64,000 nucleotides of DNA from Thermoplasmatota archaeon. Lineage in GTDB: Archaea > Thermoplasmatota > JAKEGO01. The stretch is taken from the NCBI GenBank assembly GCA_028279595.1, contig JANQNK010000001.1:160001-224000 (forward strand), in the 5' to 3' direction. Below, in pieces: positions 34,451-64,000 of the stretch (position 1 is the stretch's first letter; every line of letters begins with the position of its first letter). A program made the position numbers and the translations under genes. The notes beneath the pieces were generated by a model that was given only the letters and a program-made list of their open reading frames with translations, was not told where the DNA came from and searched no databases.

Positions 34451-34591
34451 ATGGCAGTCGAGAGGGTGAAGTTCGAGGTCTACGGGCAGGAGATGCTGGA
34501 GAAGGAGGTAAAACCCTCCGGGAACTCCGGCAGGGTGTACCTGCCCCCTGACTGGGTCGGGAAGCATGTGAAGATAATCAGGGTAGAGTGA
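34451..34591 (+). CDS. DUF2080-family small protein (AbrB-like), 46 aa, not in the ORF track
   Basis: MAVERVKFEVYGQEMLEKEVKPSGNSGRVYLPPDWVGKHVKIIRVE; K.VK..GNSG...LP..W.GK.V signature. Confidence 0.8.
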   Translation: MAVERVKFEVYGQEMLEKEVKPSGNSGRVYLPPDWVGKHVKIIRVE

Positions 34592-34592
34592 G

Positions 34593-35045
34593 GTGGCAGG
34601 TTTGGCAAAATATACGATCAGGACGATGCGGCTCGATGACATCGACGCCATCGTCGATATACAGAAGGCCCTAGTGAAGAGGAGCGCGACCAGGCGATGG
34701 CGTAAGGCCCTCAAGGTCTACATCGAGACCGAGCCGAAGGCCTGTCTTGTGGCTACGTTCAAGGGGAAGCCCATCGGCTTCATCATCGGCGACGTCAAGA
34801 CGTGGGGATTCGGCATGCGCCATTCCGGTTGGATCGAGATAATCGGGATACATCCGAAGCACATGGGCACAGGAGTTGGACGCGACCTCGGGAAGCGCCT
34901 GCTGCGCTACTTCAGGTCGATGGAGGTGGACGGCATCTACACCGCCGTCCGATGGGACTCCGGCGACCTGCTATCGTTCTTCAAGTCGATCGGTTTCGAG
35001 CATTCGGGGTTCCTGAACCTCGAACATTCAGGATCGAAGAGGTGA
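34593..35045 (+). CDS. Stand-alone GNAT acetyltransferase (GTG start)
   Basis: IR.M...D, GWIEIIGIHPKHMGTGVG, FFKSIGF. Confidence 0.85.
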   Translation: MAGLAKYTIRTMRLDDIDAIVDIQKALVKRSATRRWRKALKVYIETEPKACLVATFKGKPIGFIIGDVKTWGFGMRHSGWIEIIGIHPKHMGTGVGRDLGKRLLRYFRSMEVDGIYTAVRWDSGDLLSFFKSIGFEHSGFLNLEHSGSKR

Positions 35046-35072
35046 TACAGTAACGAATAATGGAGGGATCGG

Positions 35073-36197
35073 ATGATTGAGAAGTTCAAGGATTGGGAAC
35101 AGAACCGGCATGAATATGCCAAGGAATGGAAGGAACGCACCGGGGGGAAGGTGATGGGCTGCTTCTGCACATATGTGCCCGAGGAAGTGCTCTACGCCGC
35201 GGGCGTGCTTCCGGTCAGGATCCTGGGAAGCCATGAGCCCCAGGACGTGACCGAGCCGCACATCTTCGGGATGTTCTGTCCCTTCTGCAGGGACTGCCTG
35301 GCGCAGGGTCTGAAGGGACGATACGACTACCTCAACGGGATAATGATCGCACAATCGTGCCTGCACATCAGACAGACCTTCTGGAGCTGGCAGAAGCACG
35401 TGGAAGGCCTGGAATACTCGAAGTTCTTCATAATGCCCCACAAGGTGCAGAGCAAGGACGCGCCCGAGTTCCTAAGGGGAGAGATCGAGGAGTTCGTTGC
35501 GGAGGTCGAGGAGTGGACGGGCAAGAAGATCACGGACGAGGCCCTCGACAACGCCATTGCGGTCTACAACAAGAACCGCGAGCTGATGAGGAAGCTCTAC
35601 GACCTCCGGAAGGACCCGAACCCGCCGATATCCGGCGAGGAGGTCATGGAGATCAGCATGGCCATGGAGATGGTCGACAAGGCGGAACACAATGCGGCCC
35701 TTGAGGAGCTTTTAGAATGGCTTCCGTCGAGGACCGACAAACCCTCCGGAACCCGGCTGATGATCGTGGGGTCCGAGGACGACGACATAACGTTCCTCAA
35801 CATGGTCGAGACCTCAGGGGGCTTGTTCGTCGTGGACGACCACTGCACCGGGAGCCGCTACTTCTGGAACCAGGTCGAACCGGCCGAGGACAGGCTGATG
35901 GCCATCGCCCAGAGGTACATCGACCGGCCGCCATGTCCGACGAAGGACTGGGAGGAGAGGAAACGGCTTCCCCACATCGTCGGCCTGGCCAAGGATTGGG
36001 ACGTTGCCGGCGCGATAATCATGCAGCAGAAGTTCTGCGACCCGCACGAACTGGATTTCGTGGCTGTGAAGAAGGCCCTCGAGGACGCAGGCGTTCCGAC
36101 GCTCTTCCTCGAGTTCGACGTGACCGTGCCCATAGGGCAGTTCAAGATCAGGGTCGAGGCATTCCTCGAGATGATCGGAGATGAGGACCTGTTCTGA
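35073..36197 (+). CDS. bzdN: Benzoyl-CoA reductase, Bzd-type, subunit N
   Basis: GCFCTYVPEE, EPHIFGMFCPFCRDCLAQGL.G.Y, DDHCTGSRY, RPPCPTKD, QQKFCDPHE. Confidence 0.9.
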   Translation: MIEKFKDWEQNRHEYAKEWKERTGGKVMGCFCTYVPEEVLYAAGVLPVRILGSHEPQDVTEPHIFGMFCPFCRDCLAQGLKGRYDYLNGIMIAQSCLHIRQTFWSWQKHVEGLEYSKFFIMPHKVQSKDAPEFLRGEIEEFVAEVEEWTGKKITDEALDNAIAVYNKNRELMRKLYDLRKDPNPPISGEEVMEISMAMEMVDKAEHNAALEELLEWLPSRTDKPSGTRLMIVGSEDDDITFLNMVETSGGLFVVDDHCTGSRYFWNQVEPAEDRLMAIAQRYIDRPPCPTKDWEERKRLPHIVGLAKDWDVAGAIIMQQKFCDPHELDFVAVKKALEDAGVPTLFLEFDVTVPIGQFKIRVEAFLEMIGDEDLF

Positions 36198-36209
36198 GGT
36201 GGTGATGAT

Positions 36210-37550
36210 ATGGAAGATCTGTATCCGACCGAGAAATTGAAGTGCTGGAACGAATCGAAGGACCTCAGGATGAAGTATTACCAGGACTACGCCGAGGCAC
36301 ACGATAACGGAGGACTGAGATGGGCCGGAGGCGCCTGGACGTTCGACGCGATCCCCGCGGGGCTGGGAGACGACGTCTATCCGATAACAAGCGAGCCTTA
36401 CGGCGCCACCCTGGCATTCGACAAGGAACTCTCGCTGAAATGTCTCGAAGCGACCGAGGTGAAAGGCTATCCGCGCGACCTCTGCTCGTACATGCGCAAC
36501 TACTGGGGTTCCATCATTACGGACACGTTCGCATTCGGCTACGACGCCGAGGGGAACTTCCAGCCGAGGTTCCTGGACGGCGTCGAGCCCCTGGGATTCC
36601 CGAAGCCCGACTTCATCTGGCAGGACCACATCTGCTGCTCGCACGCGAAGTGGTACCAGGTCGTGTCCGAGCTGGAGGGTGGCATCCCCGCATATTCCGT
36701 CGACAACGCCGTGGGACCCTCCCACGAGATCAACGACCGGAAGATCAAGTTCGTCGTGGAACAGCTGAAGGAAGGCATCGAGTTCCTCGTCAAGACCACG
36801 GGACGGGATTACGACGACGAGCTACTTTACAAGGCTATCAGGAACCACTTCGTCTCGACGTCGAAGTGGGCGGAGATCTGTGAACTGAACAAGAACATCC
36901 CGGCTCCCTTGGACGAGAAATCGATCTACTCCCTGTATGTCTTCGGGACGCTCCAGAAGGCGGGAGCGCAGGTTGCGAACTTCTACGAGAACGTCCTCCT
37001 GCCGGAGGTGCAGGACAGGGTCAGGCGCGGTATCGCCGCTGTGCCCACAGAGAAGTTCCGTGTCATGTCCGACACACAACCGCCGTGGAGCTTCCTGAGC
37101 ATCTTCCGTTATCTGGAGGAGTACGGCTGCGTTTCGGTGGGGTCTCTCTACACATTCGGTCTCCTTGGTCAGTGGGAGGACAAGCCCGACGGGACCTGGG
37201 GCCCGAAGACGATACCTGACACAAACTTCTCGTCCCGGGACGAGGCGCTCTACGAGTACGTGAAGTACGAGCTGCACAAGCCGGAGTGGCAGCACTTCTA
37301 CTCCTGCCATCAGAAGAGCGACATGATGATACGTATCGCCAGGGAATGGCAGCTGTCGGGAGTGATGCTTCACTACAACCGCGGCTGCGAGGGCCTGAGC
37401 ATCGGTATCGCCGAGAACCGTCTGGCGCTGATCGACGCGGGCTTCCCGGTCATGGCGTTCGAGGGCAACAACGCGGACGAGAGGGAGTTCGACCAGGCCC
37501 GGACCAAGGCCAAGATAGACGCGTTCATGGAGACGCTGGGGGCCAAGTGA
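36210..37550 (+). CDS. bzdO: Benzoyl-CoA reductase, Bzd-type, subunit O
   Basis: YPTE.LKCW, RWAGGAW, TSEPYGA, RDLCSYMRNYWGS, QDHICCSHAKW, HYNRGCEG. Confidence 0.9.
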   Translation: MEDLYPTEKLKCWNESKDLRMKYYQDYAEAHDNGGLRWAGGAWTFDAIPAGLGDDVYPITSEPYGATLAFDKELSLKCLEATEVKGYPRDLCSYMRNYWGSIITDTFAFGYDAEGNFQPRFLDGVEPLGFPKPDFIWQDHICCSHAKWYQVVSELEGGIPAYSVDNAVGPSHEINDRKIKFVVEQLKEGIEFLVKTTGRDYDDELLYKAIRNHFVSTSKWAEICELNKNIPAPLDEKSIYSLYVFGTLQKAGAQVANFYENVLLPEVQDRVRRGIAAVPTEKFRVMSDTQPPWSFLSIFRYLEEYGCVSVGSLYTFGLLGQWEDKPDGTWGPKTIPDTNFSSRDEALYEYVKYELHKPEWQHFYSCHQKSDMMIRIAREWQLSGVMLHYNRGCEGLSIGIAENRLALIDAGFPVMAFEGNNADEREFDQARTKAKIDAFMETLGAK

Positions 37551-37562
37551 GAGGTGAGATGA

Positions 37563-38342
37563 ATGATCACAATGGGAATAGACATGGGTGCGAAGAACAT
37601 CAAGGTCGTCGTTCTGAGGGACGACGAGATCATTGGGAAATCCCTGGTCACCGCCGGGTTCGACGTGGAGCCTGCGGCCAACGAGGCCATCGACAAGGCC
37701 CTGGAGGCCGCGGGTGTGACACGCGACGAGGTCGATAAGACCGTGTCAACCGGTGCCGGCGAGAAGCAGGCCCCGATGTTCGATGAGACGAAATCGATGG
37801 TCGGTTGCGACTCGCTCGGAGCTGTCTACCTCCACCCCGCCGCCCGTAGCGTCATCGACGTCGGGGCAGAGGAGGGTCGGGGCATGCGGTGCGACGAGAC
37901 CGGAAAGATCCTGGATTTCGAGGTGAACGAGAAGTGCGCCGCCGGCGCTGGAGCCTTCACTGAGGCCATGTCGAGGGCCCTTGAGGTCCAGCTCGAGGAG
38001 CTCGGGCCGTTGTCCCTCGAGGCCGACGAGGAGGTCCCGATGAACGCGCAGTGCACTGTCTTCGCGGAGTCGGAGGTCGTGACCATGGTGCACAACAACA
38101 TTTCGAAAGCGAACATGGCGAAGGCCGTCCACGATGCAATGGCGAGCCGGATAACCTCCATGGTGAGGAAGATCGGGTTCAACAAGGACGTGGTCCTGGT
38201 TGGCGGCGTTGCCCGCAACATCGGCTTCGTCACGTCGCTGAACTCGGACCTCGAGCTCGAGGTCGTGGTTCCTGAGGACCCGGAGTTCGTCGGAGCACTG
38301 GGAGCGGCGCTTGCCGCCTCAGGATGGAAGGGAGGTGCTTGA
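37563..38342 (+). CDS. bzdP: Benzoyl-CoA reductase activase subunit P
   Basis: GIDMG, IDVGAEEGR, NEKCAAGAGAF, NAQCTVFAESE, GALGAA. Confidence 0.88.
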   Translation: MITMGIDMGAKNIKVVVLRDDEIIGKSLVTAGFDVEPAANEAIDKALEAAGVTRDEVDKTVSTGAGEKQAPMFDETKSMVGCDSLGAVYLHPAARSVIDVGAEEGRGMRCDETGKILDFEVNEKCAAGAGAFTEAMSRALEVQLEELGPLSLEADEEVPMNAQCTVFAESEVVTMVHNNISKANMAKAVHDAMASRITSMVRKIGFNKDVVLVGGVARNIGFVTSLNSDLELEVVVPEDPEFVGALGAALAASGWKGGA

Positions 38343-38343
38343 A

Positions 38344-39210
38344 ATGGCTGACAAGGTAGAACTGTGGAGATGGACCGAGTCCAGGTGGACGAATCCCGAC
38401 ATGGACTGGAAGGGGAAGCTGATAACCTCCGGCATCGACGTCGGTTCCGTCAGCTCCCAGGCCGTGATCCTCGCCGATGGCGAGCTCTACGCCTACTCGA
38501 ACATGAGGACCGGCTCGAACAGTCCGGACTCGGCGATGAACGCCATCAACTGGGCCATGGAGGACACCGGGCTCAAACTGGATGACATAACGTACACCGT
38601 CGGGACAGGTTACGGTCGTGTGAACGTACCGTTCGCCCAGAAGCCCATAACCGAGATCGCGTGCCACGCCCGCGGGGCGAACGCCATCTACGGCAACACC
38701 GTGCGGACCGTTCTCGACATGGGCGGCCAGGACTGCAAGGCTATCCACTGCGACGAGCGTGGCAAGGTCACGAACTTCCTCATGAACGACAAGTGCGCGG
38801 CCGGGACCGGTCGCGGCATGGAGGTCTTCGCTGACCTGCTAGGCGTGTCCATCAATGAAGTGGGCGACCTCTCGCTGAATGTCGAGGAGGAGCCAGACCC
38901 CGTGAGCAGCACATGTGTGGTCTATGCGAAGACCGAGGCCACGGGACTGCTCCGCGAGGGCTGGCCCACGAACAAGGTGCTGGCAGCATACTGCTCCGCC
39001 ATGGCCCACAGGATAATCACCCTGCTCGAGAGGATCGGAGTCGAGGAGGACTTCGCCATCACAGGCGGGATCGCAAAGAACGTCGGCGTGGTGCAGCGGC
39101 TGGAGAAGGAGGTCGGGATAAAGATCCTCAGGACAGAATACGACACCCAGCTGGCCGGTGCCCTAGGCGGAGCGCTGTTCGCCAAGGTCCTTCACGAGAA
39201 GGGCAAGTAG
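38344..39210 (+). CDS. bzdQ: Benzoyl-CoA reductase activase subunit Q
   Basis: N-terminal WRW.E, GIDVGSVSSQAV, TGYGR, EIACH, DMGGQD, MNDKCAAGTGR, SSTCVV. Confidence 0.9.
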   Translation: MADKVELWRWTESRWTNPDMDWKGKLITSGIDVGSVSSQAVILADGELYAYSNMRTGSNSPDSAMNAINWAMEDTGLKLDDITYTVGTGYGRVNVPFAQKPITEIACHARGANAIYGNTVRTVLDMGGQDCKAIHCDERGKVTNFLMNDKCAAGTGRGMEVFADLLGVSINEVGDLSLNVEEEPDPVSSTCVVYAKTEATGLLREGWPTNKVLAAYCSAMAHRIITLLERIGVEEDFAITGGIAKNVGVVQRLEKEVGIKILRTEYDTQLAGALGGALFAKVLHEKGK

Positions 39211-39220
39211 GTGATGCCTG

Positions 39221-39508
39221 ATGATCGCGAACTATGGATACAAGGACGGCTCGGGCGACTACTTCATCGCCATCGACACCGACAGGTGCAACGGGTGCGG
39301 GGACTGCGTAACAGCATGCCCCTACGGCGTCATGGGCGTGGGTCCGGATGAGAACGATCCCCTCTCGGACGACGAGGTGGCGTTCGTCACCGAGGCCGAG
39401 AGGAAGAAGATCAAGTACACCTGCGCACCGTGCAAGCCGATGGCCGACAGGCCGCCGCTTCCGTGCATCGCTGCCTGTCCGCTCGATGCGATCGAACATT
39501 CCTGGTAA
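39221..39508 (+). CDS. bzdM: Ferredoxin (BzdM-like)
   Basis: MIANYGYKDGSG.YF..IDT..CNGCGDC..ACP; second cluster CAPC...C..AC. Confidence 0.82.
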   Translation: MIANYGYKDGSGDYFIAIDTDRCNGCGDCVTACPYGVMGVGPDENDPLSDDEVAFVTEAERKKIKYTCAPCKPMADRPPLPCIAACPLDAIEHSW

Positions 39509-39562
39509 GTGGGAATGGAGTGCCAACGGCAGAGGGGTAGCACAGGGACGGAGAGTGACCAA

Positions 39563-56605: not shown

Positions 56606-56719
56606 ATTCCTCACCATTTGACACCTGACCATTACGGTCGTCACCTGTACCGGATAGGGCGTTCCCGCCACCGGCAAGGTTAATAATCCTCGGATGGCTT
56701 TCGGAACGGTCGGGTGACG

Positions 56720-57505: not shown

Positions 57506-57509
57506 ATGG

Positions 57510-57718: not shown

Positions 57719-58657
57719 ATGTTCGATCTCCGCAAGGGCTACGACTTTCCGCCATTCAGGCCTCCCAACGAGGCCTCCTCGGCACTGATCCGGGTTACCC
57801 GGGGATGTCCCTGGAACCGGTGCGAGTTCTGTACCATGTACAAGGGCACACGGTTCCAGATGCGACCCCTCGAGGATGTCAAGCGGGACGTCGACACCGC
57901 CGCGGAGATCTTCCTCGGGTCGAGGACGGTGTTCATCGCGGACTCCGACAGTCTCGTGCGGAAGGACATCGTGGAGATCATGGAGTACGTCAGGGAGAAG
58001 TTCCCGGATGCCGAGCGGATCACCTCGTACGGAAGGGCCAGGACCCTTAGGGTCCTCGGTCCCGAGAGGTTGAAAAGGATCAGGGAGGCCGGGCTCACAA
58101 GGATCCACATGGGCCTGGAGTCCGGGGACAAGGAGACCCTCGAGATGATGCAAAAGGGCGTGGGTCCCGAGGAGATGATCGCTGGCGGGAAGGCCGCCCG
58201 GGAGGCGGGCCTCGACCTCTCCCTTTACGTTCTGATCGGCGCAGGAGGGCCCGACCGTCTGAGGGAGCACGCCCTCGGCTCGGCTCGTGTCTGCAATGCC
58301 ATCGATCCGGACTTCATCCGGCTGAGGACACTGGTCGTCGAGCACGCCTCTTCCCTCGAGGCGAAGCTCAAGCAGGGAACCTTCAGGACGACGACCCCCC
58401 TCCAGAAGCTCGAGGAGGTGAGGACGTTCGTCGATGCTCTGGAGGTCACTGATTGCCAGTTCGCTTCCGACCACTTCGCTAACTACATCTGGATCGACCA
58501 CGAATGCGTCTACGACGGTATCGCAGGCCACCTACCGGGGGACAAGGCTAGGATGCTGGCCAAGTTGGACCGCGCCATCGAGAGGATCGGCTCGACGGAC
58601 GGCGACGTACAGGACGTAACGATCCTGCACGAAAGGGGTCTTGTCGGACATCTCTGA
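57719..58657 (+). CDS. Radical SAM protein of unknown function
   Basis: RPP.EA.S, GCPWNRCEFC (Cx4Cx2C), GLESG, SDH..N. Confidence 0.88.
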   Translation: MFDLRKGYDFPPFRPPNEASSALIRVTRGCPWNRCEFCTMYKGTRFQMRPLEDVKRDVDTAAEIFLGSRTVFIADSDSLVRKDIVEIMEYVREKFPDAERITSYGRARTLRVLGPERLKRIREAGLTRIHMGLESGDKETLEMMQKGVGPEEMIAGGKAAREAGLDLSLYVLIGAGGPDRLREHALGSARVCNAIDPDFIRLRTLVVEHASSLEAKLKQGTFRTTTPLQKLEEVRTFVDALEVTDCQFASDHFANYIWIDHECVYDGIAGHLPGDKARMLAKLDRAIERIGSTDGDVQDVTILHERGLVGHL

Positions 58658-58659
58658 GC

Positions 58660-58938
58660 TCATCCGCCGCTTATCGGGATGAAGAAGAGTATCTCATCGC
58701 CGTCCTTCAGGGCCGTATCGGTCCCGTCGAGGGCGTTGATCGGCCTGTCGTTCACGAACAGAATGAAGTAGTCGGTCAGTTCCCCGTCGGGCTCGTAGAG
58801 CTCATCCCTCAATTTAGGGTACTTATCGACGAGATGATCCAACAGGTCCGAGACGGTCGAGCCCTCCAGCTCCTCCTCGATCTCCCGCGAACCCACAGCG
58901 TCCGAAAAGGGCTTGAGAAGGTTCACCTTGACCATCAT
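58660..58938 (-). CDS. moaD: MoaD/ThiS/SAMP ubiquitin-like protein
   Basis: VN, L.DGDE...P.SGG C-terminus. Confidence 0.85.
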   Translation of the reverse strand: MMVKVNLLKPFSDAVGSREIEEELEGSTVSDLLDHLVDKYPKLRDELYEPDGELTDYFILFVNDRPINALDGTDTALKDGDEILFFIPISGG

Positions 58939-59049: not shown

Positions 59050-60258
59050 ATGGGTTTCGAGAAGGCATACATTCCGTACGGGGCTTACTGGAGCACGCCG
59101 TTCTGCAGGTGGCAGGGGAGCTTCCAGAACCAGCATGCGATCGTATTCGCGGCAGATGTCGCGAGGATGTTCTTCGAGAGGAGCGGGATCCCCGTCGCGG
59201 ACCTGGACGGGGTGATCCTCGGCACGACCATCCCCCAGAGGAACGTCTTCTACGGTACTCCCTGGTTCGCTGGCATGATAGGGGCTGACAGAGTGACTGG
59301 ACCCATGGTCGGACAGGCGTGCGCCACATCAGCCAAGGCGGTCGAGCTCGCGGCACAGGGGATCGAGACCGGGACGAACAGGGTCATGCTCGCCGCATGC
59401 GCCGACAGGTGCAGCAACGGACCCCTCCTCGTCTACCCCAACGCCGGGAGGCCGGGAGCCACACAGGACACCGAGAGCTGGGTATGGGACAACTTCGGAC
59501 ACGACCCGTTCGCTAAGAACGCGATGGTCGAGACCGCGGAGAACGTCGCCCGGGAGGAGGGGATCATGAAGGAGGAGCAAGACGAGGTGACCCTCATCAG
59601 ATATCAGCAGTACGAGGCTTCCCTGGCCAACGACCTCGAGTTCCAGAAGCGTTACATGATCACGCCCATCGATGTAATGGACTCCCGCGGAAAGAAGGTC
59701 GTCGCTACGGTCGATGGCGACGAGGGCGTGTTCCCGACCAATGCCGAGGGCCTCGCGAAGTTGAAACCCGTCATGCAGGGCGGCACGGTCACCTTCGGGT
59801 CCCAGACCCATCCGGCCGACGGGAACACTGGCATAATGATCACGGACAAGGAGAGCGCCGCGAAGTATTCGACCAGGGACGACGTCGAGGTACAGATACT
59901 CTCTTACGGTGAGGGGCGTGCGGAGAAGGGCTACATGGCCAAGGCTATCGTGCCGGCGGCTGACCGGGCCCTCGAGGCCGCGGGTATCGGGATGTCCGAC
60001 GTCGCAGCCATCAAGACCCACACACCGTTCGCCGTGAATGACATCTACTTCTGCCGGACCTACGGACTGGAGTACGACGCGATGAACAACTACGGCTGTT
60101 CCCTCATCTACGGTCATCCGCAGGGACCCACCGGGTCCCGCGGGATAATGGAGATGATCGAGGAGCTGGTCCTCCTCGACGGAGGCTACGGTCTCTTCGA
60201 CGGATGCGCCGCCGGAGACACCGGCGCCGCCCTGGTCCTCAAGGTCACTATCTCATAG
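59050..60258 (+). CDS. Thiolase (acetyl-CoA C-acyltransferase)
   Basis: QACATS, ETAENVA, ADG, GHP.G.TG, GCAAG. NEAF is replaced by HTPF. Confidence 0.9.
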   Translation: MGFEKAYIPYGAYWSTPFCRWQGSFQNQHAIVFAADVARMFFERSGIPVADLDGVILGTTIPQRNVFYGTPWFAGMIGADRVTGPMVGQACATSAKAVELAAQGIETGTNRVMLAACADRCSNGPLLVYPNAGRPGATQDTESWVWDNFGHDPFAKNAMVETAENVAREEGIMKEEQDEVTLIRYQQYEASLANDLEFQKRYMITPIDVMDSRGKKVVATVDGDEGVFPTNAEGLAKLKPVMQGGTVTFGSQTHPADGNTGIMITDKESAAKYSTRDDVEVQILSYGEGRAEKGYMAKAIVPAADRALEAAGIGMSDVAAIKTHTPFAVNDIYFCRTYGLEYDAMNNYGCSLIYGHPQGPTGSRGIMEMIEELVLLDGGYGLFDGCAAGDTGAALVLKVTIS

Positions 60259-60269
60259 GGAGGTTCGGA

Positions 60270-62306
60270 ATGAAGATGCAGAAGGTGGGCGTCATCGGCG
60301 CCGGCAACATGGGAAGCGGGATCGCGCAGAGGATCGCCCAGGAGGACATCCAGGTCGTCATGGTCGACATGGAGGACGAGTTCGTCGAGCGAGGGATGGA
60401 GAACATCCGTAAGACACTCGGCGAGGGCGTCGAGAGGCGCATATTCACCGCCGAGCGGATGGAGAAGATACTCTCAAACATCACGGGGACCACCGACAGG
60501 AAGGCCGTCGCAGACGCAGACCTGGTCATCGAGGTCATCTTCGAGGACATGGCGGTCAAGAAACAGCTCTTCAGTGAACTGGACGATATATGTTCACAAA
60601 AGACGGTGCTCGCCTCGAACACATCATCCTTCTCCATCACGGAGCTCGCCGACGCCGTGAGGCGCAAGGACAGGTTCGTAGGGCTCCACTTCTTCTACCA
60701 TCCGGCCAAGAACCGGCTCCTCGAGGTCATTCCAGGTGAGTGGACAGGCGATGGTACCGTCGCCATGGCCGAGGAGTTCGCCCGTACGATCGGGAAGACG
60801 GGCATCAACGTCAAGGACGCTCCCGGGTTCGCCGTGAACAGGTTTTTCGTCCCGTGGCTCAACGAGGCCGCCCGCCTCCACGGCGAGGAGATCTCGATCC
60901 CCACGATCGACGAGACCGCGAAACGGGTCTTCGACATCGGCATGGGGCCCTTCGAACTGATGAACGTCACCGGGATACCGATCGCGTACCACTCGACAGT
61001 GAGCCTCGGGAACGCCCTCGGGGACTTTTACGGTCCCAGCGACAGGCTGGCACGCCAGTTCGAGTCCGGAGAGGAATGGGACCTGTCCGGTGAGATCGAC
61101 GACCACCAGGTGGCCACTGTCGAGGAACGACTGCTCGGTACGGTATTCACTGTGGCATGCCAGCTCGTCCAGGAGGGGGTGGCCAGCATCGAGGATACCG
61201 ACAGGGGAGCCAAGATCGGCCTACGATGGTCGTCAGGTCCCTTCGAGATGATGAACGCTGTCGGGATCGAGCGGGCGCACGGCATCGTCACCGATTTCGT
61301 CGGATGGTACGACGACCTCGAGATGCCCCGGAACCTGGAGACGCAGCTTTCACTCGGCCGACCGTGGGACATCAGCTACGTCGATCTTGCAGTCGATGGA
61401 CGCATCGCTCATGTGACATTCAACAGGCCAGAGGCCCTCAACTCCATCAACGAGACCGTGATGAAGCAGCTGGACGAACGTTTCTTCGAGGCAGAGATCA
61501 CCGACGGCGTCGAGGTCATTGTCCTCGAGGGCGCCGGCAAGGCGTTCGTGGCCGGAGCCGACATCGCCTACTTCATCGAGAAGATCGACGAGGACAGGAT
61601 AGACGACATAGTCGAGTTCACGTCGTTCGGCCACAAGGTCCTGAAGAGGATCGACAGCTCCGAGAAGCTGGTCATCGCGAAGCTGGACGGCCTCGCCATG
61701 GGCGGGGGGACCGAGATAACCCTTGCCGCAGACACGATCGTGGCGACCGAACGTGGGAGCCTGGCCCTCCCCGAGACGGGAATAGGTATCTATCCCGGTC
61801 TGGGTGGAACGCAGCGAATGACAAGGTATATTGGGAAGGAGCTCGCGAAGTACCTCGTCCTTACCGGAAGGCCCCTTGACGCGGTCACGGCCAAGGACAT
61901 CGGGCTGGTGGAATACGTGTTCCCCTCCTCCGAGGTCGATGAGAGGATAGAGGAACTCGTCAGGAGCGGTCCCGTGATGACCAAGGAGAGCAGGGAGGAG
62001 GTCACACTTCCGGAGAACATGAGCGCGATCAAGGACCTCTTCTCGAACGCCAACCTGCAGATGCTCCTCAAGGGGGACCCGGGCCTGGATGAGACCGGCA
62101 GCAAGCTGGCCCAGACGATATCGAGGAAGGCACCCATCGCCGTGAAGATAGCGAACACGTTGATCGACGAGGGAGCGGACATAGACCTCGATGACGGACT
62201 CCAGCTGGAGCTGGACCATCTCAACGAGATATTCAGGACAAAGGACGCTTACGAGGGGCTCTCGTCGGTACTCGAGAGACGGAGGCCTTCTTTCAGCGGG
62301 GAATAG
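60270..62306 (+). CDS. 3-hydroxyacyl-CoA dehydrogenase / enoyl-CoA hydratase fusion
   Basis: GAGNMGSG, ASNTSS, GLHFF.P, PGF.VNR; C-terminal crotonase NRPEALN, AGAD, GGG.E, PE..IG..PG.GGTQR. Confidence 0.93.
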   Translation: MKMQKVGVIGAGNMGSGIAQRIAQEDIQVVMVDMEDEFVERGMENIRKTLGEGVERRIFTAERMEKILSNITGTTDRKAVADADLVIEVIFEDMAVKKQLFSELDDICSQKTVLASNTSSFSITELADAVRRKDRFVGLHFFYHPAKNRLLEVIPGEWTGDGTVAMAEEFARTIGKTGINVKDAPGFAVNRFFVPWLNEAARLHGEEISIPTIDETAKRVFDIGMGPFELMNVTGIPIAYHSTVSLGNALGDFYGPSDRLARQFESGEEWDLSGEIDDHQVATVEERLLGTVFTVACQLVQEGVASIEDTDRGAKIGLRWSSGPFEMMNAVGIERAHGIVTDFVGWYDDLEMPRNLETQLSLGRPWDISYVDLAVDGRIAHVTFNRPEALNSINETVMKQLDERFFEAEITDGVEVIVLEGAGKAFVAGADIAYFIEKIDEDRIDDIVEFTSFGHKVLKRIDSSEKLVIAKLDGLAMGGGTEITLAADTIVATERGSLALPETGIGIYPGLGGTQRMTRYIGKELAKYLVLTGRPLDAVTAKDIGLVEYVFPSSEVDERIEELVRSGPVMTKESREEVTLPENMSAIKDLFSNANLQMLLKGDPGLDETGSKLAQTISRKAPIAVKIANTLIDEGADIDLDDGLQLELDHLNEIFRTKDAYEGLSSVLERRRPSFSGE

Positions 62307-62307
62307 G

Positions 62308-62898
62308 ATGGTAGTCGTCGGACTCACCGGAGGGATCTGCGCCGGGAAGACCCTGGTGGCCTCGATGATGGGCGAGATGGGTGCCCGCGTCTACGACGCA
62401 GACGCCGCAGTCCATCAACTCCTGTTGAGGGAGGACATCATGAATGCCGTCATCGATCTCCTCGGACCCCAGATTATCGTAGAAGGCCGGCTGGACCGGA
62501 AGCTCATTGCGGACATCGTATTCGAGGACAGGGAAGCCCTGCACGGACTTGAGGCCATACTCCATCCCGCCGTCCACGTCCAGGTGATGGAGATCGTCTA
62601 TCATCTTCCGGGGTACGGGATCCTTGTACTCGACGCACCCTTGCTCATCGAGGCTGAACACGAGGACATCTGCGACGTGCTCATACACGTGGCCGTTGAC
62701 CCTGGTGTCCTGGCGGACAGACTGATGGAACGCGGGATGACGATGGAGGAAATGGAGCGGAGGTCCGATCGTCAGATGTCCGAGGGGGACAAGATCGCCC
62801 TCGCCTCGGCCGTGATCGACAATTCCGGGACCATATCCGAGACGAGGGAGCAGGTCGAGCGCGCCTGGCGGGACAACGTACTCCCGCTGACGCGGTGA
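62308..62898 (+). CDS. coaE: Dephospho-CoA kinase, bacterial type
   Basis: VGLTGGICAGKT, DAD..VH, LDR..IA..VF, LEAILHP, DAPLL.E, IDNSG. Confidence 0.9.
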   Translation: MVVVGLTGGICAGKTLVASMMGEMGARVYDADAAVHQLLLREDIMNAVIDLLGPQIIVEGRLDRKLIADIVFEDREALHGLEAILHPAVHVQVMEIVYHLPGYGILVLDAPLLIEAEHEDICDVLIHVAVDPGVLADRLMERGMTMEEMERRSDRQMSEGDKIALASAVIDNSGTISETREQVERAWRDNVLPLTR

Positions 62899-63040
62899 GT
62901 TGAACGAGTTGACCGTGGTCCAAACGACCTTGCACATCATCAGATGTCAATAATAAGCGAATAATTTCTCGGTCATTTCTCCGAGTGGCCAGACCGAAAA
63001 CCTTTTCGTTGCGATTTCGATAGGGAGGACCGGTGACACA

Positions 63041-64000
63041 ATGGAAGATTGGTTCTTCACAGAGGAGCAGCGTATGTTCCGCGAGAGTCTGAGAGAATAC
63101 CTCCAGCATCACTTTTCGCTCGAGGTCATTGAACATATAGAGGAGAAGAGAGAGATCCCCAAGGCGATCATCGAGGCCATGGCGGAGTTCGAACTTTTCT
63201 GTCCGATGGTCTCCGAGGATTACGGTGGGGCGGGGTTCGACCTCGTGACCGCCGGGATAGTCGGAGAGGAGCTTGCTAGGGTCGACCCGACCGGCTCGAC
63301 CTGCGTTTACTACCTCGTTCCGGCATCGTGGAGCAGGATCATCGACCTCTACGGGACTGAGGAGGCGAAGCAGGAGCTGCTACCCAAGATGACCAAGGGT
63401 GAGATATTCTGCGGAATAGCCTCGACCGAGGCCGACACTGGGTCCGACCTCGGGAACATGATAACCACGATCAAGCCCGACGGCGACGGTTACGTCGTCA
63501 ACGGCGCCAAGAACTACATCTCTGGCGTGCGTGAGGCCTCCACTCTCGGAGGCGGGCATGTCACCCTCGCACGACAGGACCTAGACGCCGGGGTCCGCGG
63601 ATGTACGCTATTCTACCTTCCACTGACCGCGGACGGGATCGAGATATCCCAGGACCGCGAGATGGGCAGGGAGGGCATGTCGACCGGCGGGTTCCGGATC
63701 GATAACGTCAAGATACCCAAGCATTACCTCATCGGCGAGGAGAACAAGGGCTTCTACATTATCCACGAGGGATACGAGGCAGCTCGCGGGATCATCGCAT
63801 GCGTGTGCGCCGGTGCGGCCCTGAAGGCGCTCGAGAACGCCGTCGCCTACATGAAGGAGCGCAAGACTTTCGGACAACCGCTGGCACGATACCAGGGGAT
63901 GCAGTTCCCCCTCGCCGAGCACTGGTCGAAGATGATGATGGTCCGCGACTGGGGCTACAAGGCCCTCAGGATAATGGACCAGGAGAAGCAGGGGAAGGCG
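63041..64000 (+). CDS. Acyl-CoA dehydrogenase (runs off window end)
   Basis: Manual translation: MEDWFFTEEQRMFR..YGG.G..EELAR..STEADTGSD..VNGAK.YIS..R.TFG.PL..YQG.QF. SD GGAGG upstream. Confidence 0.92.
   Translation, partial: MEDWFFTEEQRMFRESLREYLQHHFSLEVIEHIEEKREIPKAIIEAMAEFELFCPMVSEDYGGAGFDLVTAGIVGEELARVDPTGSTCVYYLVPASWSRIIDLYGTEEAKQELLPKMTKGEIFCGIASTEADTGSDLGNMITTIKPDGDGYVVNGAKNYISGVREASTLGGGHVTLARQDLDAGVRGCTLFYLPLTADGIEISQDREMGREGMSTGGFRIDNVKIPKHYLIGEENKGFYIIHEGYEAARGIIACVCAGAALKALENAVAYMKERKTFGQPLARYQGMQFPLAEHWSKMMMVRDWGYKALRIMDQEKQGKA

What the first reader, a model, noticed from the sequence alone, without database searches (positions are those of the whole stretch)
34451..64000. About 30-kb anaerobic aromatic-degradation island with a complete Bzd-type benzoyl-CoA reductase in a probable Thermoplasmata archaeon
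Seen: bzdN-O-P-Q, a ferredoxin and a BzdV-like oxidoreductase in Azoarcus/Aromatoleum-like order, followed by AOR, CoA ligases and beta-oxidation genes. The flank is clearly archaeal (carS, secG). Known: class I BCR performs ATP-dependent ring dearomatisation, and the characterised archaeal case is Ferroglobus placidus. Inference: this organism degrades aromatic acids or amino acids anaerobically, possibly with bacterially derived genes. The dienoyl-CoA hydratase, dehydrogenase and ring-opening hydrolase (Dch/Had/Oah) are not recognisable in this window.
Basis: partly seen in the sequence, partly recalled or inferred. Interest (0 to 1): 0.75.

Follow-up and report, generated by a model that had tools for sequence, protein, structure and literature searches.

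The report
Benzoyl-CoA reductase gene cluster, Thermoplasmata archaeon
An uncultured sediment-type archaeon carries an intact set of genes for the ATP-driven enzyme that breaks the aromaticity of benzoyl-CoA, together with helper genes, which is real but has already been reported for this group of archaea.

Summary
Window 35073-42076 (+) encodes intact BzdN, BzdO, BzdP and BzdQ, a 2x[4Fe-4S] ferredoxin and an 855-aa Fe-S flavoprotein. N, O and Q score above NCBIfam's curated bzd-type cut-offs. Every cluster ligand and catalytic residue named for the solved Aromatoleum BzdNO structure is kept, except Ser44, which is Gly.

The left flank is archaeal. An independently assembled Thermoplasmata MAG (L014) has the same flank-to-bzdN junction, and composition is uniform across it, so the join is not chimeric and this is not a compositional island. 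The operon sits in a 13-row Thermoplasmata clade, so it is old in that lineage. Bacteria and archaea interleave deeper in the tree, and the direction of transfer is unresolved.

The window has no dch/had/oah. Nine sister Thermoplasmata loci carry an Oah equivalog directly upstream of the same operon.

Many neighbours recur beside bzd operons in Asgard archaea and bacteria: an AorABC-like tungsten aldehyde oxidoreductase, CoA ligases, a lone HadB-like radical enzyme with its activase, a PanE-like reductase, a thiolase and an acyl-CoA dehydrogenase.

Class I bcr genes in Thermoplasmata were published in 2019-2022, and NCBI already names close relatives. This is a new member of a known kind, of modest interest.

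The parts
33444..34389 (.). Left boundary: CarS (33444-34082 +) and Sec61beta (34123-34389 -), archaeal housekeeping genes
   Evidence: NF003114 183.1 bits against cut-off 148; NF002318 70.2 against 55. Same neighbours next to GNAT-bzdN in L014
34593..35045 (+). GNAT acetyltransferase directly upstream of bzdN
   Evidence: PF00583 36.4 bits. A homologue precedes bzdN in 32 of 80 related loci
35073..36197 (+). BzdN, the subunit that carries the [8Fe-9S] double-cubane cluster
   Evidence: TIGR03190 490.0 > 453.8. 8s02_B 473.3 bits against HadC 172.7 and MbdN 123. C32, C69, C96, C258, C288, C322, R49, R262, R285 and H325 match Cys36/73/100/263/293/327, Arg53/267/290 and His330 of the solved protein
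36210..37550 (+). BzdO, the benzoyl-CoA-binding catalytic subunit
   Evidence: TIGR03191 590.7 > 448.6. 8s02_A 557.7 bits against HadB 82.7 and MbdO 42.2. C92, C142, C393, E62, H145, W43, Y94, Q290, Y314, L318 and L396 are kept; the Ser44 site is Gly41. A 15-17-aa insert lies at about residues 111-127
37563..38342 (+). BzdP-type ATPase subunit
   Evidence: PF01869 172.1; TIGR00241 209.1 > 125.4. Two Cys are invariant with BzdQ and the second activase
38311..39210 (+). BzdQ ATPase subunit (the true start is probably a later Met, about 38344)
   Evidence: TIGR03192 439.0 > 380.2. Best solved relatives are MbdQ 202.7 and the HadI activator 196.5
39221..39508 (+). 95-aa 2x[4Fe-4S] ferredoxin at the BzdM position
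   Evidence: Fer4 families. Two Cys motifs in the translation. Present after bzdQ in 66 of 80 loci
39509..42076 (+). 855-aa Fe-S flavoprotein (BzdV-like), presumed NAD(P)H:ferredoxin oxidoreductase
   Evidence: Fer2_4, 4Fe-4S, Fer4_20 and Pyr_redox_2 domains. PRK12771 437.7 < 516. The C-terminal part resembles the NfnB/GltD-like modules of 9bov_A (389.6), 8oh5_C (379.3) and NfnA 9n5u_A (338.5). Present in 55 of 80 loci
42089..42358 (+). 89-aa conserved ORF of no known family
   Evidence: No Pfam or NCBIfam match. A homologue (32-51% identity) is present in 14 of 80 loci across phyla, after the BzdV-like gene wherever that gene was detected
42259..42981 (+). MBL-fold hydrolase (glyoxalase II-like)
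   Evidence: PF00753 130.7. Present in 11 of 80 loci, all Thermoplasmata
42978..43724 (+). Sir2/CobB NAD-dependent protein deacylase
   Evidence: NF001753 291.6 > 243. Present in 4 of 80 loci
43779..45584 (+). Tungsten-type aldehyde:ferredoxin oxidoreductase (AorB-like)
   Evidence: AFOR_C 339.2 and AFOR_N 237.6. 1aor_A 394.7, 8c0z_A 276; class II BamB 4z3w_A only 190.8 over residues 1-394
45581..46039 (+). Poly-ferredoxin subunit (AorA-like)
   Evidence: Best solved relative is 8c0z_C, 106.3 bits. Next to AOR in 14 of 80 loci
46040..46846 (-). SAM methyltransferase, role unknown
   Evidence: Methyltransf_31/25/11. Present in 3 of 80 loci
46856..48202 (-). FAD/NAD oxidoreductase (AorC/PadH-like)
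   Evidence: Best solved relative is 8c0z_E, 186.2 bits. NF045765 271.5 < 475. Present in 7 of 80 loci
48085..50667 (-). Fusion of a GlcD-like FAD 2-hydroxyacid dehydrogenase with 4Fe-4S and CCG domains
   Evidence: FAD-oxidase_C 225.3, FAD_binding_4 137.2, CCG 99.1. Not found beside bzd in the 80 loci
50664..51623 (-). PanE/ApbA-family 2-oxoacid reductase
   Evidence: TIGR00745 188.6 > 141.35. Present in 14 of 80 loci at 28-50% identity
51625..53181 (-). AMP-forming acyl-CoA ligase
   Evidence: PF00501 288.5; PRK06187 453.8 < 476. Homologues at 44% identity or more in 13 of 80 loci
53183..55270 (-). ADP-forming acyl-CoA synthetase (fused alpha-beta)
   Evidence: ATP-grasp_5 238.6, Succ_CoA_lig 141, CoA_binding_2 99.6. 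Present in 4 of 80 loci at 54-73%
55275..56513 (-). Lone HadB-like (alpha-type) radical dehydratase/reductase subunit, with no beta partner
   Evidence: PF06050 223.8; HadB model 226.2 < 750. 3o3m_A 178.4 with three Cys aligned. Lies in the HadB-best clade, 99 support. Present in 11 of 80 loci at 52-66%. Homodimer model passes
56714..57505 (+). HgdC/HadI-type ATP-dependent activase, divergent from the lone dehydratase gene
   Evidence: TIGR00241 202.9 > 125.4. Present in 6 of 80 loci
57719..58938 (.). Radical SAM protein (57719-58657 +) and MoaD/SAMP-like protein (58660-58938 -), possibly for pterin cofactor maturation
   Evidence: PF04055 79.6; TIGR01687 68.1 > 49.5. A MoaD-like gene precedes AOR in L001-L003
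59050..60258 (+). Thiolase
   Evidence: Thiolase_N and Thiolase_C. TIGR01930 186.8 < 240.55. Homologues at 60-63% in 9 of 80 loci, all Asgard
60204..62306 (+). Fused 3-hydroxyacyl-CoA dehydrogenase / enoyl-CoA hydratase
   Evidence: 3HCDH_N 197.9, ECH_2 172. 56-61% homologues in L005 and L019
62191..62898 (+). CoaE-type dephospho-CoA kinase
   Evidence: TIGR00152 125 > 65.55
63041..64000 (+). Acyl-CoA dehydrogenase, cut by the window end
   Evidence: Acyl-CoA_dh N, M and C-terminal (Acyl-CoA_dh_1) domains. Best models are AcrC 181.8, cyclohexanecarboxyl-CoA dehydrogenase 149.9 and glutaryl-CoA dehydrogenase 144.8, all far below cut-off. 59-64% homologues beside bzd in 4 Asgard loci

Best explanation
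This is a chromosomal, long-resident gene cluster of an uncultured Thermoplasmata archaeon. Its nearest relatives are MAGs labelled SG8-5 / 'Ca. Proteinoplasmatales' and Thermoplasmatales.

Its core is a seven-gene, co-directional operon:
- a GNAT gene;
- BzdN and BzdO, the catalytic dimer, with an [8Fe-9S] electron-relay cluster in N and an aqua-[4Fe-4S] active site in O;
- BzdP and BzdQ, an ATPase pair that shares a bridging [4Fe-4S] cluster;
- a 2x[4Fe-4S] ferredoxin;
- an NfnB/GltD-like Fe-S flavoprotein.

Inferred mechanism, following the Aromatoleum enzyme. The flavoprotein reduces the ferredoxin with NAD(P)H, possibly with a second donor. The ferredoxin reduces BzdPQ. ATP hydrolysis lowers the potential of that electron, which passes through BzdN to BzdO. 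There benzoyl-CoA is reduced to cyclohexa-1,5-diene-1-carbonyl-CoA.

The other 20 kb supply and consume aryl- and acyl-CoA esters:
- a three-subunit AorABC-like tungsten aldehyde oxidoreductase;
- an AMP-forming and an ADP-forming CoA ligase;
- a PanE-like 2-oxoacid reductase;
- a lone, probably homodimeric, HadB-like radical enzyme with its activase;
- a thiolase, a fused hydratase/dehydrogenase and an acyl-CoA dehydrogenase.

Shown: gene content, family membership by curated cut-offs, conservation of all but one of the named active-site residues, the archaeal host, the real junction, and recurrence of the neighbours beside bzd operons elsewhere.

Inferred: enzyme activity, the electron path, and the substrates of the accessory enzymes. 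It is also inferred that the ring-opening steps (Dch/Had/Oah), absent here, are encoded elsewhere in the genome.
For: - Equivalog scores are above the curated cut-offs for N, O and Q.
- The solved BzdNO is by far the best PDB match: 557.7 and 473.3 bits, against 82.7 and 172.7 for HadBC.
- 9 of 9 cluster cysteines are kept. So are 3 of 3 Arg and the His around the double cubane, and E62, H145, W43, Y94, Q290, Y314, L318 and L396 at the substrate site. The eleven BzdO sites checked are kept in 80 of 80 aligned BzdO rows.
- Only 3 of 95 near-full-length representatives of the wider family pass the BzdO cut-off. The window's protein scores as they do and forms a clade with 10 locus BzdO and one of the three (P0122, 96 support); the other two are the next sisters, with weak support (63, 51).
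- Two invariant Cys are shared by BzdP, BzdQ and the activase.
- Operon order N-O-P-Q-ferredoxin is found in 66 to 76 of 80 loci, followed by the flavoprotein in 55 of 80. The published order in Azoarcus/Aromatoleum is bzdNOPQM...V (PMC5658619, passages).
- The host and the junction are supported.
- An Oah equivalog (580.1 > 464.45) lies directly upstream of GNAT-bzdN in L005, with 72-86% homologues in 8 further Thermoplasmata loci.
- AorA-, AorB- and AorC-like best hits all go to entry 8c0z.
Against: - No dch/had/oah lies in 64 kb, nor in the shorter flanks held for the closest loci L001, L003 and L014.
- No benzoate-CoA ligase model was among the 25 best of the ligase's 107 matches.
- Ser44 of the solved enzyme, which hydrogen-bonds to Glu65 and lies 3.6-4.0 A from ring C3, is Gly here and in all 80 rows. 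BzdO also carries a 15-17-aa insert that is absent from the solved protein.
- No BzdP-specific model and no named BzdV sequence were at hand.
- An ATP-consuming reductase in a presumed fermenter is energetically awkward, as earlier authors noted (PMC6472368, 10.1101/763623).
- There are no expression or activity data.
Confidence: 0.75

Rival explanations
1. Aromatic amino-acid route. The cluster serves protein fermentation rather than hydrocarbon or pollutant degradation. The proposed steps are:
1. Phenylpyruvate is reduced by the PanE-like enzyme.
2. The product is activated to the CoA ester.
3. The lone HadB-like enzyme dehydrates it to cinnamoyl-CoA.
4. Beta-oxidation by the fused hydratase/dehydrogenase and the thiolase yields benzoyl-CoA.
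5. BzdNOPQ dearomatises benzoyl-CoA.
The AOR would oxidise phenylacetaldehyde. This refines the best explanation rather than excluding it.
For: - Each step has a candidate gene in the window.
- HadB-like, activase, PanE-like, ACD, ligase and thiolase homologues recur beside bzd operons in Asgard and bacterial loci (11, 6, 14, 4, 13 and 9 of 80).
- One source names a 76%-identical protein '(R)-phenyllactyl-CoA dehydratase alpha subunit'. This is an automatic name.
- SG8-5 archaea took up 13C from protein in SIP experiments (PMC9123169, passages).
- The AOR trio resembles the Aromatoleum AorABC. That enzyme's role in phenylalanine catabolism is recalled, not checked.
Against: - No aminotransferase, CoA-transferase or substrate-specific model supports it.
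- The HadB model score of 226 is far below the cut-off of 750.
- The HadB-like family also occurs at 72-78% identity in Desulfobacterales and Anaerolineae.
- PMC9123169 does not contain 'benzoyl' or 'aromatic' (0 occurrences of each).
- The GlcD-CCG fusion, which could with the LctP permease of the left flank form an ordinary lactate module, was not found beside bzd in the 80 loci; LctP recurs only in L014.
Confidence: 0.3
2. Electron-sink use. Benzoyl-CoA is reduced but the ring is not opened. The dienoyl-CoA is reduced further to cyclohexane carboxylate to dispose of reducing equivalents.
For: - The window and the closest loci lack dch/had/oah.
- The acyl-CoA dehydrogenase gives weak matches to cyclohexanecarboxyl-CoA dehydrogenase models: 149.9 and 116.6 bits, far below the cut-offs of 575 and 650.
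Against: - Nine sister loci carry an Oah equivalog beside the same operon.
- Spending ATP on an electron sink is costly.
- The known case of fermentative cyclohexane carboxylate formation uses another enzyme class (recalled).
Confidence: 0.08
3. The enzyme acts on a substrate other than benzoyl-CoA, such as a substituted benzoyl-CoA or another aryl-CoA, as a diverged Bzd-like paralogue.
For: - Ser44 is Gly, and there is a clade-specific insert in BzdO.
- A large grey zone of BzdO-like proteins lies below the cut-off: 73 of 95 representatives.
Against: - Scores are well above the equivalog cut-offs.
- Every residue named as lining the benzoyl ring or binding the thioester is kept.
- The Gly is shared by all 80 nearest relatives, including those with Oah next door.
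Confidence: 0.08
4. Artefact or recent import: either a bacterial contig mis-joined to an archaeal one at about 34.4 kb, or a recently acquired bacterial genomic island.
For: Bacterial and archaeal sequences interleave in the family tree.
Against: - An independently assembled MAG has the same junction (L014).
- Tetranucleotide r between left and right is 0.969, and every 8-kb segment of the right part scores 0.97 or more against the whole.
- The 13-row Thermoplasmata clade has 100 support.
- No integrase, transposase or flanking tRNA was seen.
Confidence: 0.03

Closest known systems
BZD-type class I benzoyl-CoA reductase BzdNOPQ with ferredoxin BzdM and BzdV of Aromatoleum (Azoarcus) sp. CIB; BzdNO structure 8S02/8S1T/8S2R (PMC11971306)
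   Same: - Four subunits in the order N-O-P-Q, then a ferredoxin.
- Equivalog-level scores.
- All nine cluster cysteines are kept, together with the Arg/His shell of the double cubane, Glu65, His131 and the residues that bind the ring and the thioester.
   Different: - The host is an archaeon.
- The Ser44 site is Gly, and BzdO carries a 15-17-aa insert.
- A GNAT gene precedes bzdN.
- The flavoprotein follows the ferredoxin directly, without the bzdSTU of the published order.
- The hydratase, dehydrogenase, hydrolase and benzoate-CoA ligase genes (bzdWXY, bzdA) are not in the operon.
- Homology of the 855-aa protein to BzdV itself was not tested, because no named BzdV sequence was available.
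Class I bcr/bzd gene clusters reported from MAGs of Thermoplasmata, Bathyarchaeota, Asgard archaea and Chloroflexi (PMC6472368; PMC9239135; PMC8163825; 10.1101/763623; PMC5736913)
   Same: - The same enzyme type in uncultured anaerobic sediment archaea.
- NCBI already names an 89%-identical protein 'benzoyl-CoA reductase, bzd-type, subunit O [Thermoplasmata archaeon]'.
- The energetic puzzle of an ATP-dependent enzyme in a presumed fermenter is the same.
   Different: - This locus is joined to 34 kb of archaeal housekeeping genes, which fixes the host. One of those papers had no marker genes on its BCR contig.
- It lacks dch/had/oah, which those papers report elsewhere in their MAGs.
- The supplements of those papers, which list the genes per MAG, were not read.
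Benzoyl-CoA pathway of Ferroglobus placidus, the cultured archaeal case
   Same: A class I reductase in an archaeon.
   Different: - No F. placidus locus was among the 80 best of 391 relatives, so no direct comparison was made.
- That organism respires Fe(III) and is hyperthermophilic (as cited in PMC6472368).
2-Hydroxyisocaproyl-CoA dehydratase HadBC with activator HadI (3O3M, 4EHT), and the double-cubane protein DCCP (6ENO, 7YYL)
   Same: - The superfamily is the same.
- The lone protein at 55275-56513 aligns end to end with HadB, with three Cys in register. An activase gene lies beside it.
   Different: - BzdN and BzdO score 3-7 times higher to BzdNO than to HadBC.
- The lone HadB-like protein has no beta subunit, here or in L044, L046 and L071. 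Its scores are far below the HadB and DCCP cut-offs (226 < 750; 65 < 350).
AorABC tungsten aldehyde oxidoreductase of Aromatoleum aromaticum (8C0Z)
   Same: The Fe-S subunit and the FAD subunit both have their best solved match in this entry (106.3 and 186.2 bits). The catalytic subunit matches it at 276 bits.
   Different: - The catalytic subunit is closer to Pyrococcus furiosus AOR (394.7 bits).
- The FAD subunit is encoded on the opposite strand, beyond a methyltransferase gene.

Membership tests
BZD-type class I benzoyl-CoA reductase | Catalytic subunits BzdN and BzdO at equivalog level | tested here: met
   TIGR03190 490.0 > 453.8; TIGR03191 590.7 > 448.6. Best PDB hits are 8s02_B and 8s02_A
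BZD-type class I benzoyl-CoA reductase | Two ATPase subunits (BzdP, BzdQ) of the BcrAD/BadFG family with cluster-bridging cysteines | tested here: met
   BzdQ TIGR03192 439.0 > 380.2. BzdP PF01869 172.1 and TIGR00241 209.1. Two invariant Cys. No bzdP-specific model matched this protein
BZD-type class I benzoyl-CoA reductase | Six Cys for the [8Fe-9S] cluster in BzdN and three Cys for the aqua-[4Fe-4S] cluster in BzdO | tested here: met
   9 of 9 kept
BZD-type class I benzoyl-CoA reductase | Acid/base pair Glu65 and His131, and the residues that bind the benzoyl ring and thioester (Trp46, Tyr97, Gln274, Tyr298, Leu302, Leu383, Ser44) | tested here: inconclusive
   All are kept except Ser44, which is Gly41 here and in 80 of 80 relatives. 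The effect of that change is unknown
BZD-type class I benzoyl-CoA reductase | ATP-dependent reduction of benzoyl-CoA to 1,5-dienoyl-CoA | not testable with these tools
   Needs an enzyme assay
BZD-type class I benzoyl-CoA reductase | Dedicated low-potential ferredoxin and a ferredoxin-reducing system in the cluster | tested here: met
   Ferredoxin at 39221-39508 and Fe-S flavoprotein at 39509-42076. Identity with BzdV itself was not tested
Benzoyl-CoA degradation pathway (Bcr-Dch-Had-Oah) | Dienoyl-CoA hydratase, hydroxyacyl-CoA dehydrogenase and ring-opening hydrolase | tested here: not met
   None in the 64-kb window. An Oah equivalog is present in sister loci. The rest of the genome was not available
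2-Hydroxyacyl-CoA dehydratase (as a reading of BzdNO) | Subunits group with HadBC/HgdAB | tested here: not met
   HadB and HadC models 120.2 and 185.6, against cut-offs of 750 and 700. In the tree BzdO lies apart from the HadB-best clade
2-Hydroxyacyl-CoA dehydratase (lone protein 55275-56513) | Alpha/beta heterodimer with an activator; alpha subunit with three Cys | tested here: inconclusive
   Three Cys are aligned and an activase lies adjacent. There is no beta subunit, and the score of 226 is below 750. Homodimer model: score 0.49 against a best control of 0.00
Class II benzoyl-CoA reductase (BamB) | The AOR-family subunit is closest to BamB | tested here: not met
   4z3w_A 190.8 bits over residues 1-394, against 394.7 for P. 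furiosus AOR
AorABC-type aldehyde oxidoreductase | Catalytic W-pterin subunit plus poly-ferredoxin subunit plus FAD/NAD subunit | tested here: met
   8c0z_A 276, 8c0z_C 106.3 (best hit), 8c0z_E 186.2 (best hit). Similarity by sequence only
Genomic island (recent horizontal import) | Deviant composition, mobility genes, insertion at a tRNA, patchy presence among relatives | tested here: not met
   Left-right r 0.969. No mobility gene. No tRNA at the border. The operon is shared by a 13-row clade

The most novel reading that the evidence does not exclude
The bzd operon is one half of a conserved, cross-domain gene neighbourhood. The other half is a lone, homodimeric HadB-like radical enzyme with its own activase, a PanE-like 2-oxoacid reductase, CoA ligases, a thiolase and an AorABC-type aldehyde oxidoreductase.

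Together they would form a so far undescribed route. Protein-fermenting sediment archaea (SG8-5 Thermoplasmata, Asgard) and some bacteria would convert aromatic 2-oxo or 2-hydroxy acids from phenylalanine, through cinnamoyl-CoA, to benzoyl-CoA, and then dearomatise it.

On this reading, class I reductases in these organisms mark amino-acid catabolism, not hydrocarbon or pollutant degradation as the MAG literature reads them.
Probability: 0.2. Interest if true: 0.6.

Novelty: new member of a known kind. Interest (0 to 1): 0.3.

Why it matters
It adds a well-anchored example of an ATP-dependent benzoyl-CoA reductase in a Thermoplasmata genome. The example has 34 kb of archaeal housekeeping genes on the same contig, and its junction is confirmed in a second MAG. 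That answers the usual doubt that such genes in archaeal bins come from bacterial contamination.

The residue-level match to the 2025 BzdNO structure makes the archaeal enzyme a reasonable target for expression.

The recurring partnership with a lone HadB-like enzyme is a testable lead on where the benzoyl-CoA comes from in fermenting sediment archaea. It also bears on why they can afford an ATP-consuming reductase.

The general claim is not new. Class I bcr genes in Thermoplasmata have been in print since 2019.

Tried and rejected
- **Named references in the tree.** I wanted a tree with Aromatoleum, Thauera BcrABCD, MBR, NCR and F. placidus sequences. None could be fetched. I used instead curated NCBIfam cut-offs, PDB scores, and a tree of 94 unnamed 50%-identity representatives labelled by their best model.
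- **Rooting and direction of transfer.** These stay unresolved. The trees are midpoint-drawn, built with the quick search under LG+G4, and have SH-aLRT support only.
- **Papers.** The bzd cluster paper PMC516837 is not held. The search 'BzdNOPQ' + 'cryo-EM' gave 0 papers. PMC13101534 was checked for HAD-like enzymes in benzene degraders and held nothing relevant. The search 'hydroxyacyl-CoA dehydratase' + 'benzoyl-CoA reductase' + 'archaea' gave 5 papers; none, by title and abstract, deals with the lone HadB-like gene beside bzd.
- **Ring-opening genes.** tblastn of eight proteins from the L005 and L044 flanks, among them the Oah-, Dch- and Had-like ones, against the window found only the crotonase domain of the fused beta-oxidation protein.
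- **AOR as a class II BamB.** Considered and rejected.
- **Second HGD-D gene as a missing bzd or HAD beta subunit.** Considered and rejected. It is alpha-type and stands alone, here and in three other loci.
- **Not done.** Read coverage at the junction and a search of the rest of the genome could not be run. No paper supplements were read.

Full report
**What is there**

The window's right half is a dense run of genes. A 150-aa GNAT gene at 34593 comes first. Six co-directional genes follow, separated by no more than 27 nt:
- BzdN, 35073-36197
- BzdO, 36210-37550
- a BzdP-type ATPase, 37563-38342
- BzdQ, 38311-39210
- a 95-aa ferredoxin with two Cys motifs, 39221-39508
- an 855-aa protein, 39509-42076, with an N-terminal 2Fe-2S domain, NuoG/HydA-like 4Fe-4S domains and a GltD/NfnB-like FAD-NAD(P) module

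NCBIfam's curated equivalog models are passed by three subunits: N (490.0 against 453.8), O (590.7 against 448.6) and Q (439.0 against 380.2). P matches the shared ATPase domain model (209.1 against 125.4); no bzdP-specific model matched it. All four proteins cover their models end to end, so the reductase is complete and unbroken.

**Is it a Bzd-type reductase or a dehydratase?**

Against the PDB, BzdO scores 557.7 bits to BzdO of entry 8S02. It scores 82.7 to HadB and 42.2 to MbdO. BzdN scores 473.3 to BzdN, 172.7 to HadC, 123 to MbdN and 113.5 to the double-cubane protein.

I read sections 7-9 and passages of the structure paper (PMC11971306) and mapped its residues through the printed alignments. 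I checked the letters in the window's translations.
- BzdN keeps all six [8Fe-9S] cysteines (C32, C69, C96, C258, C288, C322). It also keeps R49, R262, R285 and H325.
- BzdO keeps the three [4Fe-4S] cysteines (C92, C142, C393) and the proposed acid/base pair E62 and H145.
- BzdO also keeps the ring and thioester contacts W43, Y94, Q290, Y314, L318 and L396.
- The one change is Ser44 to Gly41.

The eleven BzdO sites checked are kept in 80 of 80 aligned BzdO rows, and all 80 also have Gly at the Ser44 site. BzdO has a 15-17-aa insert that the solved protein lacks. BzdP, BzdQ and the second activase share two invariant cysteines. These fit the cluster-bridging pair of this ATPase family; the family positions are recalled, not checked.

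A scan of every protein in a 1.84-billion-protein representative library gave 952 relatives of BzdO at E <= 0.001 and 123 at E <= 1e-30. I passed 95 of the 150 listed representatives to NCBIfam, namely the near-full-length ones:
- 3 pass the BzdO cut-off.
- 73 have BzdO as best model but fall below the cut-off.
- 19 have HadB as best model, all below its cut-off.

I then built a 106-row tree. It held 94 of those representatives (P0210, which matched in two stretches, was left out), 10 locus BzdO and two window proteins. The window's BzdO forms a clade with the 10 locus BzdO and representative P0122 (96 support). The other two cut-off-passing representatives are the next sisters, with weak support (63, 51). 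The window's second HGD-D protein falls in the HadB-best clade (99 support).

**Host and junction**

The left 34 kb encode:
- TYW1, archaeal proteasome beta, aCPSF1 (956 bits) and Spt5
- MptA, RNase Z, aIF5A, CarS and Sec61beta

There is also a 92-nt tRNA-Glu, long enough to hold an intron.

The genome-contig scan found 391 relatives of BzdO and kept 80. The twenty best are MAGs that submitters labelled Thermoplasmata, Thermoplasmatales, Thermoplasmatota, Methanomassiliicoccales, Methanobacteriota or 'Ca. Proteinoplasmatales archaeon SG8-5', at 71-89% identity. Next come a further Methanobacteriota MAG at 67%, then Asgard archaea and several bacterial phyla, at 63-67%.

Locus L014 (JAKEGO010000067.1) shows the same order as the window, and the contig ends there: creatininase, QueE, agmatinase, aIF5A (80%), flippase, LctP (67%), CarS (60%), Sec61beta (66%), GNAT (62%), BzdN (88%), BzdO (89%). 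An independent assembly thus has the same join.

Tetranucleotide profiles of the left and right parts correlate at r = 0.969. Each 8-kb segment of the right part correlates at 0.97 or more with the whole window. The only deviant segment is 24-32 kb (r 0.836, GC 0.52), which lies outside the finding. The word 'island' fits only in the sense of a gene cluster.

**History**

I built a tree of concatenated BzdN+O+P+Q with 59 rows and 1346 columns. The rows are the window and 58 loci that have all four subunits at 90% coverage or more. I left out 21 loci with incomplete subunits, and L002, which is the same contig as L001.
- The window sits in a 4-row clade (98 support) with L001, L003 and L004.
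- That clade lies inside a 13-row clade (100 support) made only of Thermoplasmata-type MAGs.
- The neighbours of the 13-row clade are Acidobacteriota, Planctomycetota and other Thermoplasmatota rows.
- A second Thermoplasmata group (L016-L018) lies on the Asgard side of the tree.

The operon is therefore old within the window's lineage. Inter-domain transfers happened in the family, but their direction is not shown, because the tree is unrooted and came from the quick search. One observation does not fit this tree. The BzdO insert is shared by the window and L001-L020, which includes both Thermoplasmata groups, while Asgard rows have a 3-residue form and the bacteria have none.

**Ring-opening genes**

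The window has none.

In L005, a Thermoplasmatales MAG chromosome with BzdO 86% identical, these genes sit directly upstream of GNAT-bzdN:
- a fused dehydrogenase/hydratase
- a crotonase (Dch model 157.9, below 292.5)
- a Zn-dehydrogenase (Had model 116.1, below 338.65)
- a 380-aa protein that passes the Oah equivalog cut-off (580.1 against 464.45)
- a thiolase-domain protein
- an SDR

Homologues of that Oah at 72-86% identity lie in L004, L008, L010-L013, L015 and L019. The window's closest relatives L001 and L003 keep only the thiolase-domain and SDR genes. L014 has the window's housekeeping flank.

L002 and L004 come from one MAG. L004 carries Oah and L002 does not, so that bin holds two operons of different context. 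A second locus in the window's genome is therefore plausible but unchecked.

Asgard loci carry Had-, Dch- and BadI/Oah-like genes upstream of bzdN. The Had and Dch models are their best hits in L046, and the Had model in L044, always below cut-off.

**The rest of the cluster**

- **Aldehyde oxidoreductase.** AOR (43779-45584) is closest to Pyrococcus AOR (394.7 bits), not to class II BamB (190.8, partial). The adjacent poly-ferredoxin and the FAD protein at 46856-48202 both have their best solved match in the Aromatoleum AorABC entry 8C0Z (106.3 and 186.2 bits).
- **Lone HadB-like protein.** The protein at 55275-56513 is alpha-type: HadB 178.4 bits with three Cys aligned. An activase gene lies divergently beside it, and there is no beta subunit here or in L044, L046 and L071. 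Its family is unusually conserved, at 72-78% identity to proteins of Desulfonema magnum, other Desulfobacterales, Anaerolineae and SG8-5.
- **Homodimer model of that protein.** The model supports binding but does not show it. The score is 0.49 and the best of 3 controls is 0.00. The mark was reached by 20 of 30 proteins solved as pairs of one chain, and by 1 of 23 solved as single chains. The runs agree in at least 86% of contacts, and the partner's pLDDT is at least 90. My own alignment was used, so the counts hold only roughly. Like complexes (HadBC, DCCP) are solved, so the pass may reflect likeness.

Several neighbours recur within 10 kb of bzdO in the 80 loci. Many loci are cut by contig ends, so the counts below are lower bounds.

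| Gene | Loci of 80 | Identity and notes |
|---|---|---|
| GNAT | 32 | |
| AOR with its Fe-S subunit | 14 | 9 Thermoplasmata at 73-79%; 5 Heimdall/Hod at 41-42% |
| PanE-like reductase | 14 | 28-50% |
| 89-aa ORF | 14 | |
| MBL hydrolase | 11 | |
| Lone HadB-like protein | 11 | 52-66%; 8 Asgard, 3 bacteria |
| Activase | 6 | |
| AMP-forming ligase | 23 | only 13 at 44% or more |
| Thiolase | 20 | only 9 at 60% or more, all Asgard |
| ACD | 4 | |
| Acyl-CoA dehydrogenase | 4 | |
| Sir2 | 4 | |

The GlcD-CCG fusion was not found beside bzd in any of the loci. The cluster is thus a rearranged version of a neighbourhood seen across phyla, which argues for a shared function with the reductase.

**Mechanism**

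The electron path is inferred from the Aromatoleum enzyme: NAD(P)H to flavoprotein to ferredoxin to BzdPQ, with ATP hydrolysis, then to the BzdN [8Fe-9S] cluster and on to the BzdO aqua-[4Fe-4S] site and benzoyl-CoA.

The source of benzoyl-CoA is open. One coherent reading uses genes present here:
1. 2-oxoacid to 2-hydroxyacid (PanE-like)
2. to the CoA ester (ligase or ACD)
3. to enoyl-CoA (HadB-like enzyme with activase)
4. beta-oxidation (fused enzyme and thiolase) to benzoyl-CoA

AOR would handle aryl aldehydes. This would suit SG8-5 archaea, which were shown by isotope probing to catabolise protein (PMC9123169, passages). That paper contains no occurrence of 'benzoyl' or 'aromatic'. I give this reading about 0.2-0.3.

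GNAT and Sir2 could regulate the CoA ligases by lysine acylation, as recalled for Rhodopseudomonas. This was not tested.

**What is known**

- Class I bcr genes, and dch/had/oah, were reported among 12 MAGs of bacteria and of archaea (Thermoplasmata, Bathyarchaeota) in 2019 (PMC6472368).
- They were reported in Asgard archaea, with a 'BzdV protein' and a ferredoxin on one contig (PMC8163825; 10.1101/763623).
- They were reported in 'Ca. Yaplasmales' Thermoplasmatota, in a paper that called itself the first report for that phylum (PMC9239135).
- They were reported in marine Chloroflexi (PMC5736913).
- NCBI names an 89%-identical protein as bzd-type subunit O of a Thermoplasmata archaeon.

For all of these papers I read only passages found by term. 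I read no supplements, and those may list the same neighbours.

**Verdict**

This is a new member of a known kind, with interest 0.3. The lone HadB-like partner is the part most worth a bench test.

Noticed in passing
window 23000-28500: Low-GC patch: GC 0.44-0.51 against about 0.59 elsewhere, and the 24-32 kb segment has tetranucleotide r 0.836 to the whole window. It holds tRNA-Gly(GCC) at 26190-26263, a CDF transporter, and three ORFs with no Pfam or NCBIfam match (23608-23934, 24037-24837, 26704-27852). It may be foreign or integrated DNA beside a tRNA.
   Followed up: partly
window 3734-3840 (-): tRNA-Glu(CTC) of 92 nt by ARAGORN; Rfam places it at 3737-3840. It is long enough to hold an intron, as is common in archaea.
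   Followed up: no
window 42089-42358 (+): An 89-aa ORF of no known family, with a CxxC motif. Homologues at 32-51% identity are present in 14 of 80 loci from Thermoplasmata, Asgard, Acidobacteriota and Ignavibacteria, after the BzdV-like gene wherever that gene was detected. It may be an unrecognised accessory protein of the reductase system.
   Followed up: partly
window 36540-36590 (BzdO residues ~111-127): A 15-17-aa insert in BzdO is shared by the window and L001-L020. Those rows include two Thermoplasmata groups that the concatenated tree places apart. Asgard rows have a 3-residue form, and bacteria and the solved Aromatoleum protein have none. Either the insert is older than the tree suggests, or the tree is wrong there.
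   Followed up: partly
window 55275-57505: A lone alpha-type HadB-like protein with a divergent activase and no beta subunit. Its family is 72-78% identical between archaea and Desulfobacterales or Anaerolineae. Homologues lie beside bzd operons in 11 of 80 loci. The homodimer model passes: 0.49 against a best control of 0.00.
   Followed up: yes
window 34593-35045 and 42978-43724: A GNAT acetyltransferase precedes bzdN in 32 of 80 loci, and a Sir2/CobB deacylase lies in the same cluster in 4 of 80. Together they could be an acylation switch for the CoA ligases. This is an untested idea that rests on a recalled precedent.
   Followed up: no
L001, L002, L004: L001 and L002 are the same contig (the same k141 name and length) deposited in two different MAGs. 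L002 and L004 come from one MAG and carry two bzd operons with different neighbours, and only L004 has Oah. This points to bin redundancy, or to two operons per genome.
   Followed up: partly
window 18688-19683 (-): A 331-aa protein with a C-terminal Cas4/PD-(D/E)XK nuclease domain and a weak N-terminal Yip1-like match (E-value 5.6e-05, 23.5 bits, below the 28.6 cut-off). No cas gene was among the window proteins scanned; CRISPR repeats were not searched for.
   Followed up: no
window 62191-62898 (+): A CoaE-type dephospho-CoA kinase (TIGR00152 125 > 65.55) sits between the beta-oxidation genes of an archaeon. Archaea are recalled to use a different kinase for this step.
   Followed up: no
window 763-2106 (+): A 447-aa ORF whose Pirin domains start only at residue 190. 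The N-terminal 190 residues match no family, so the start codon may be wrong.
   Followed up: no
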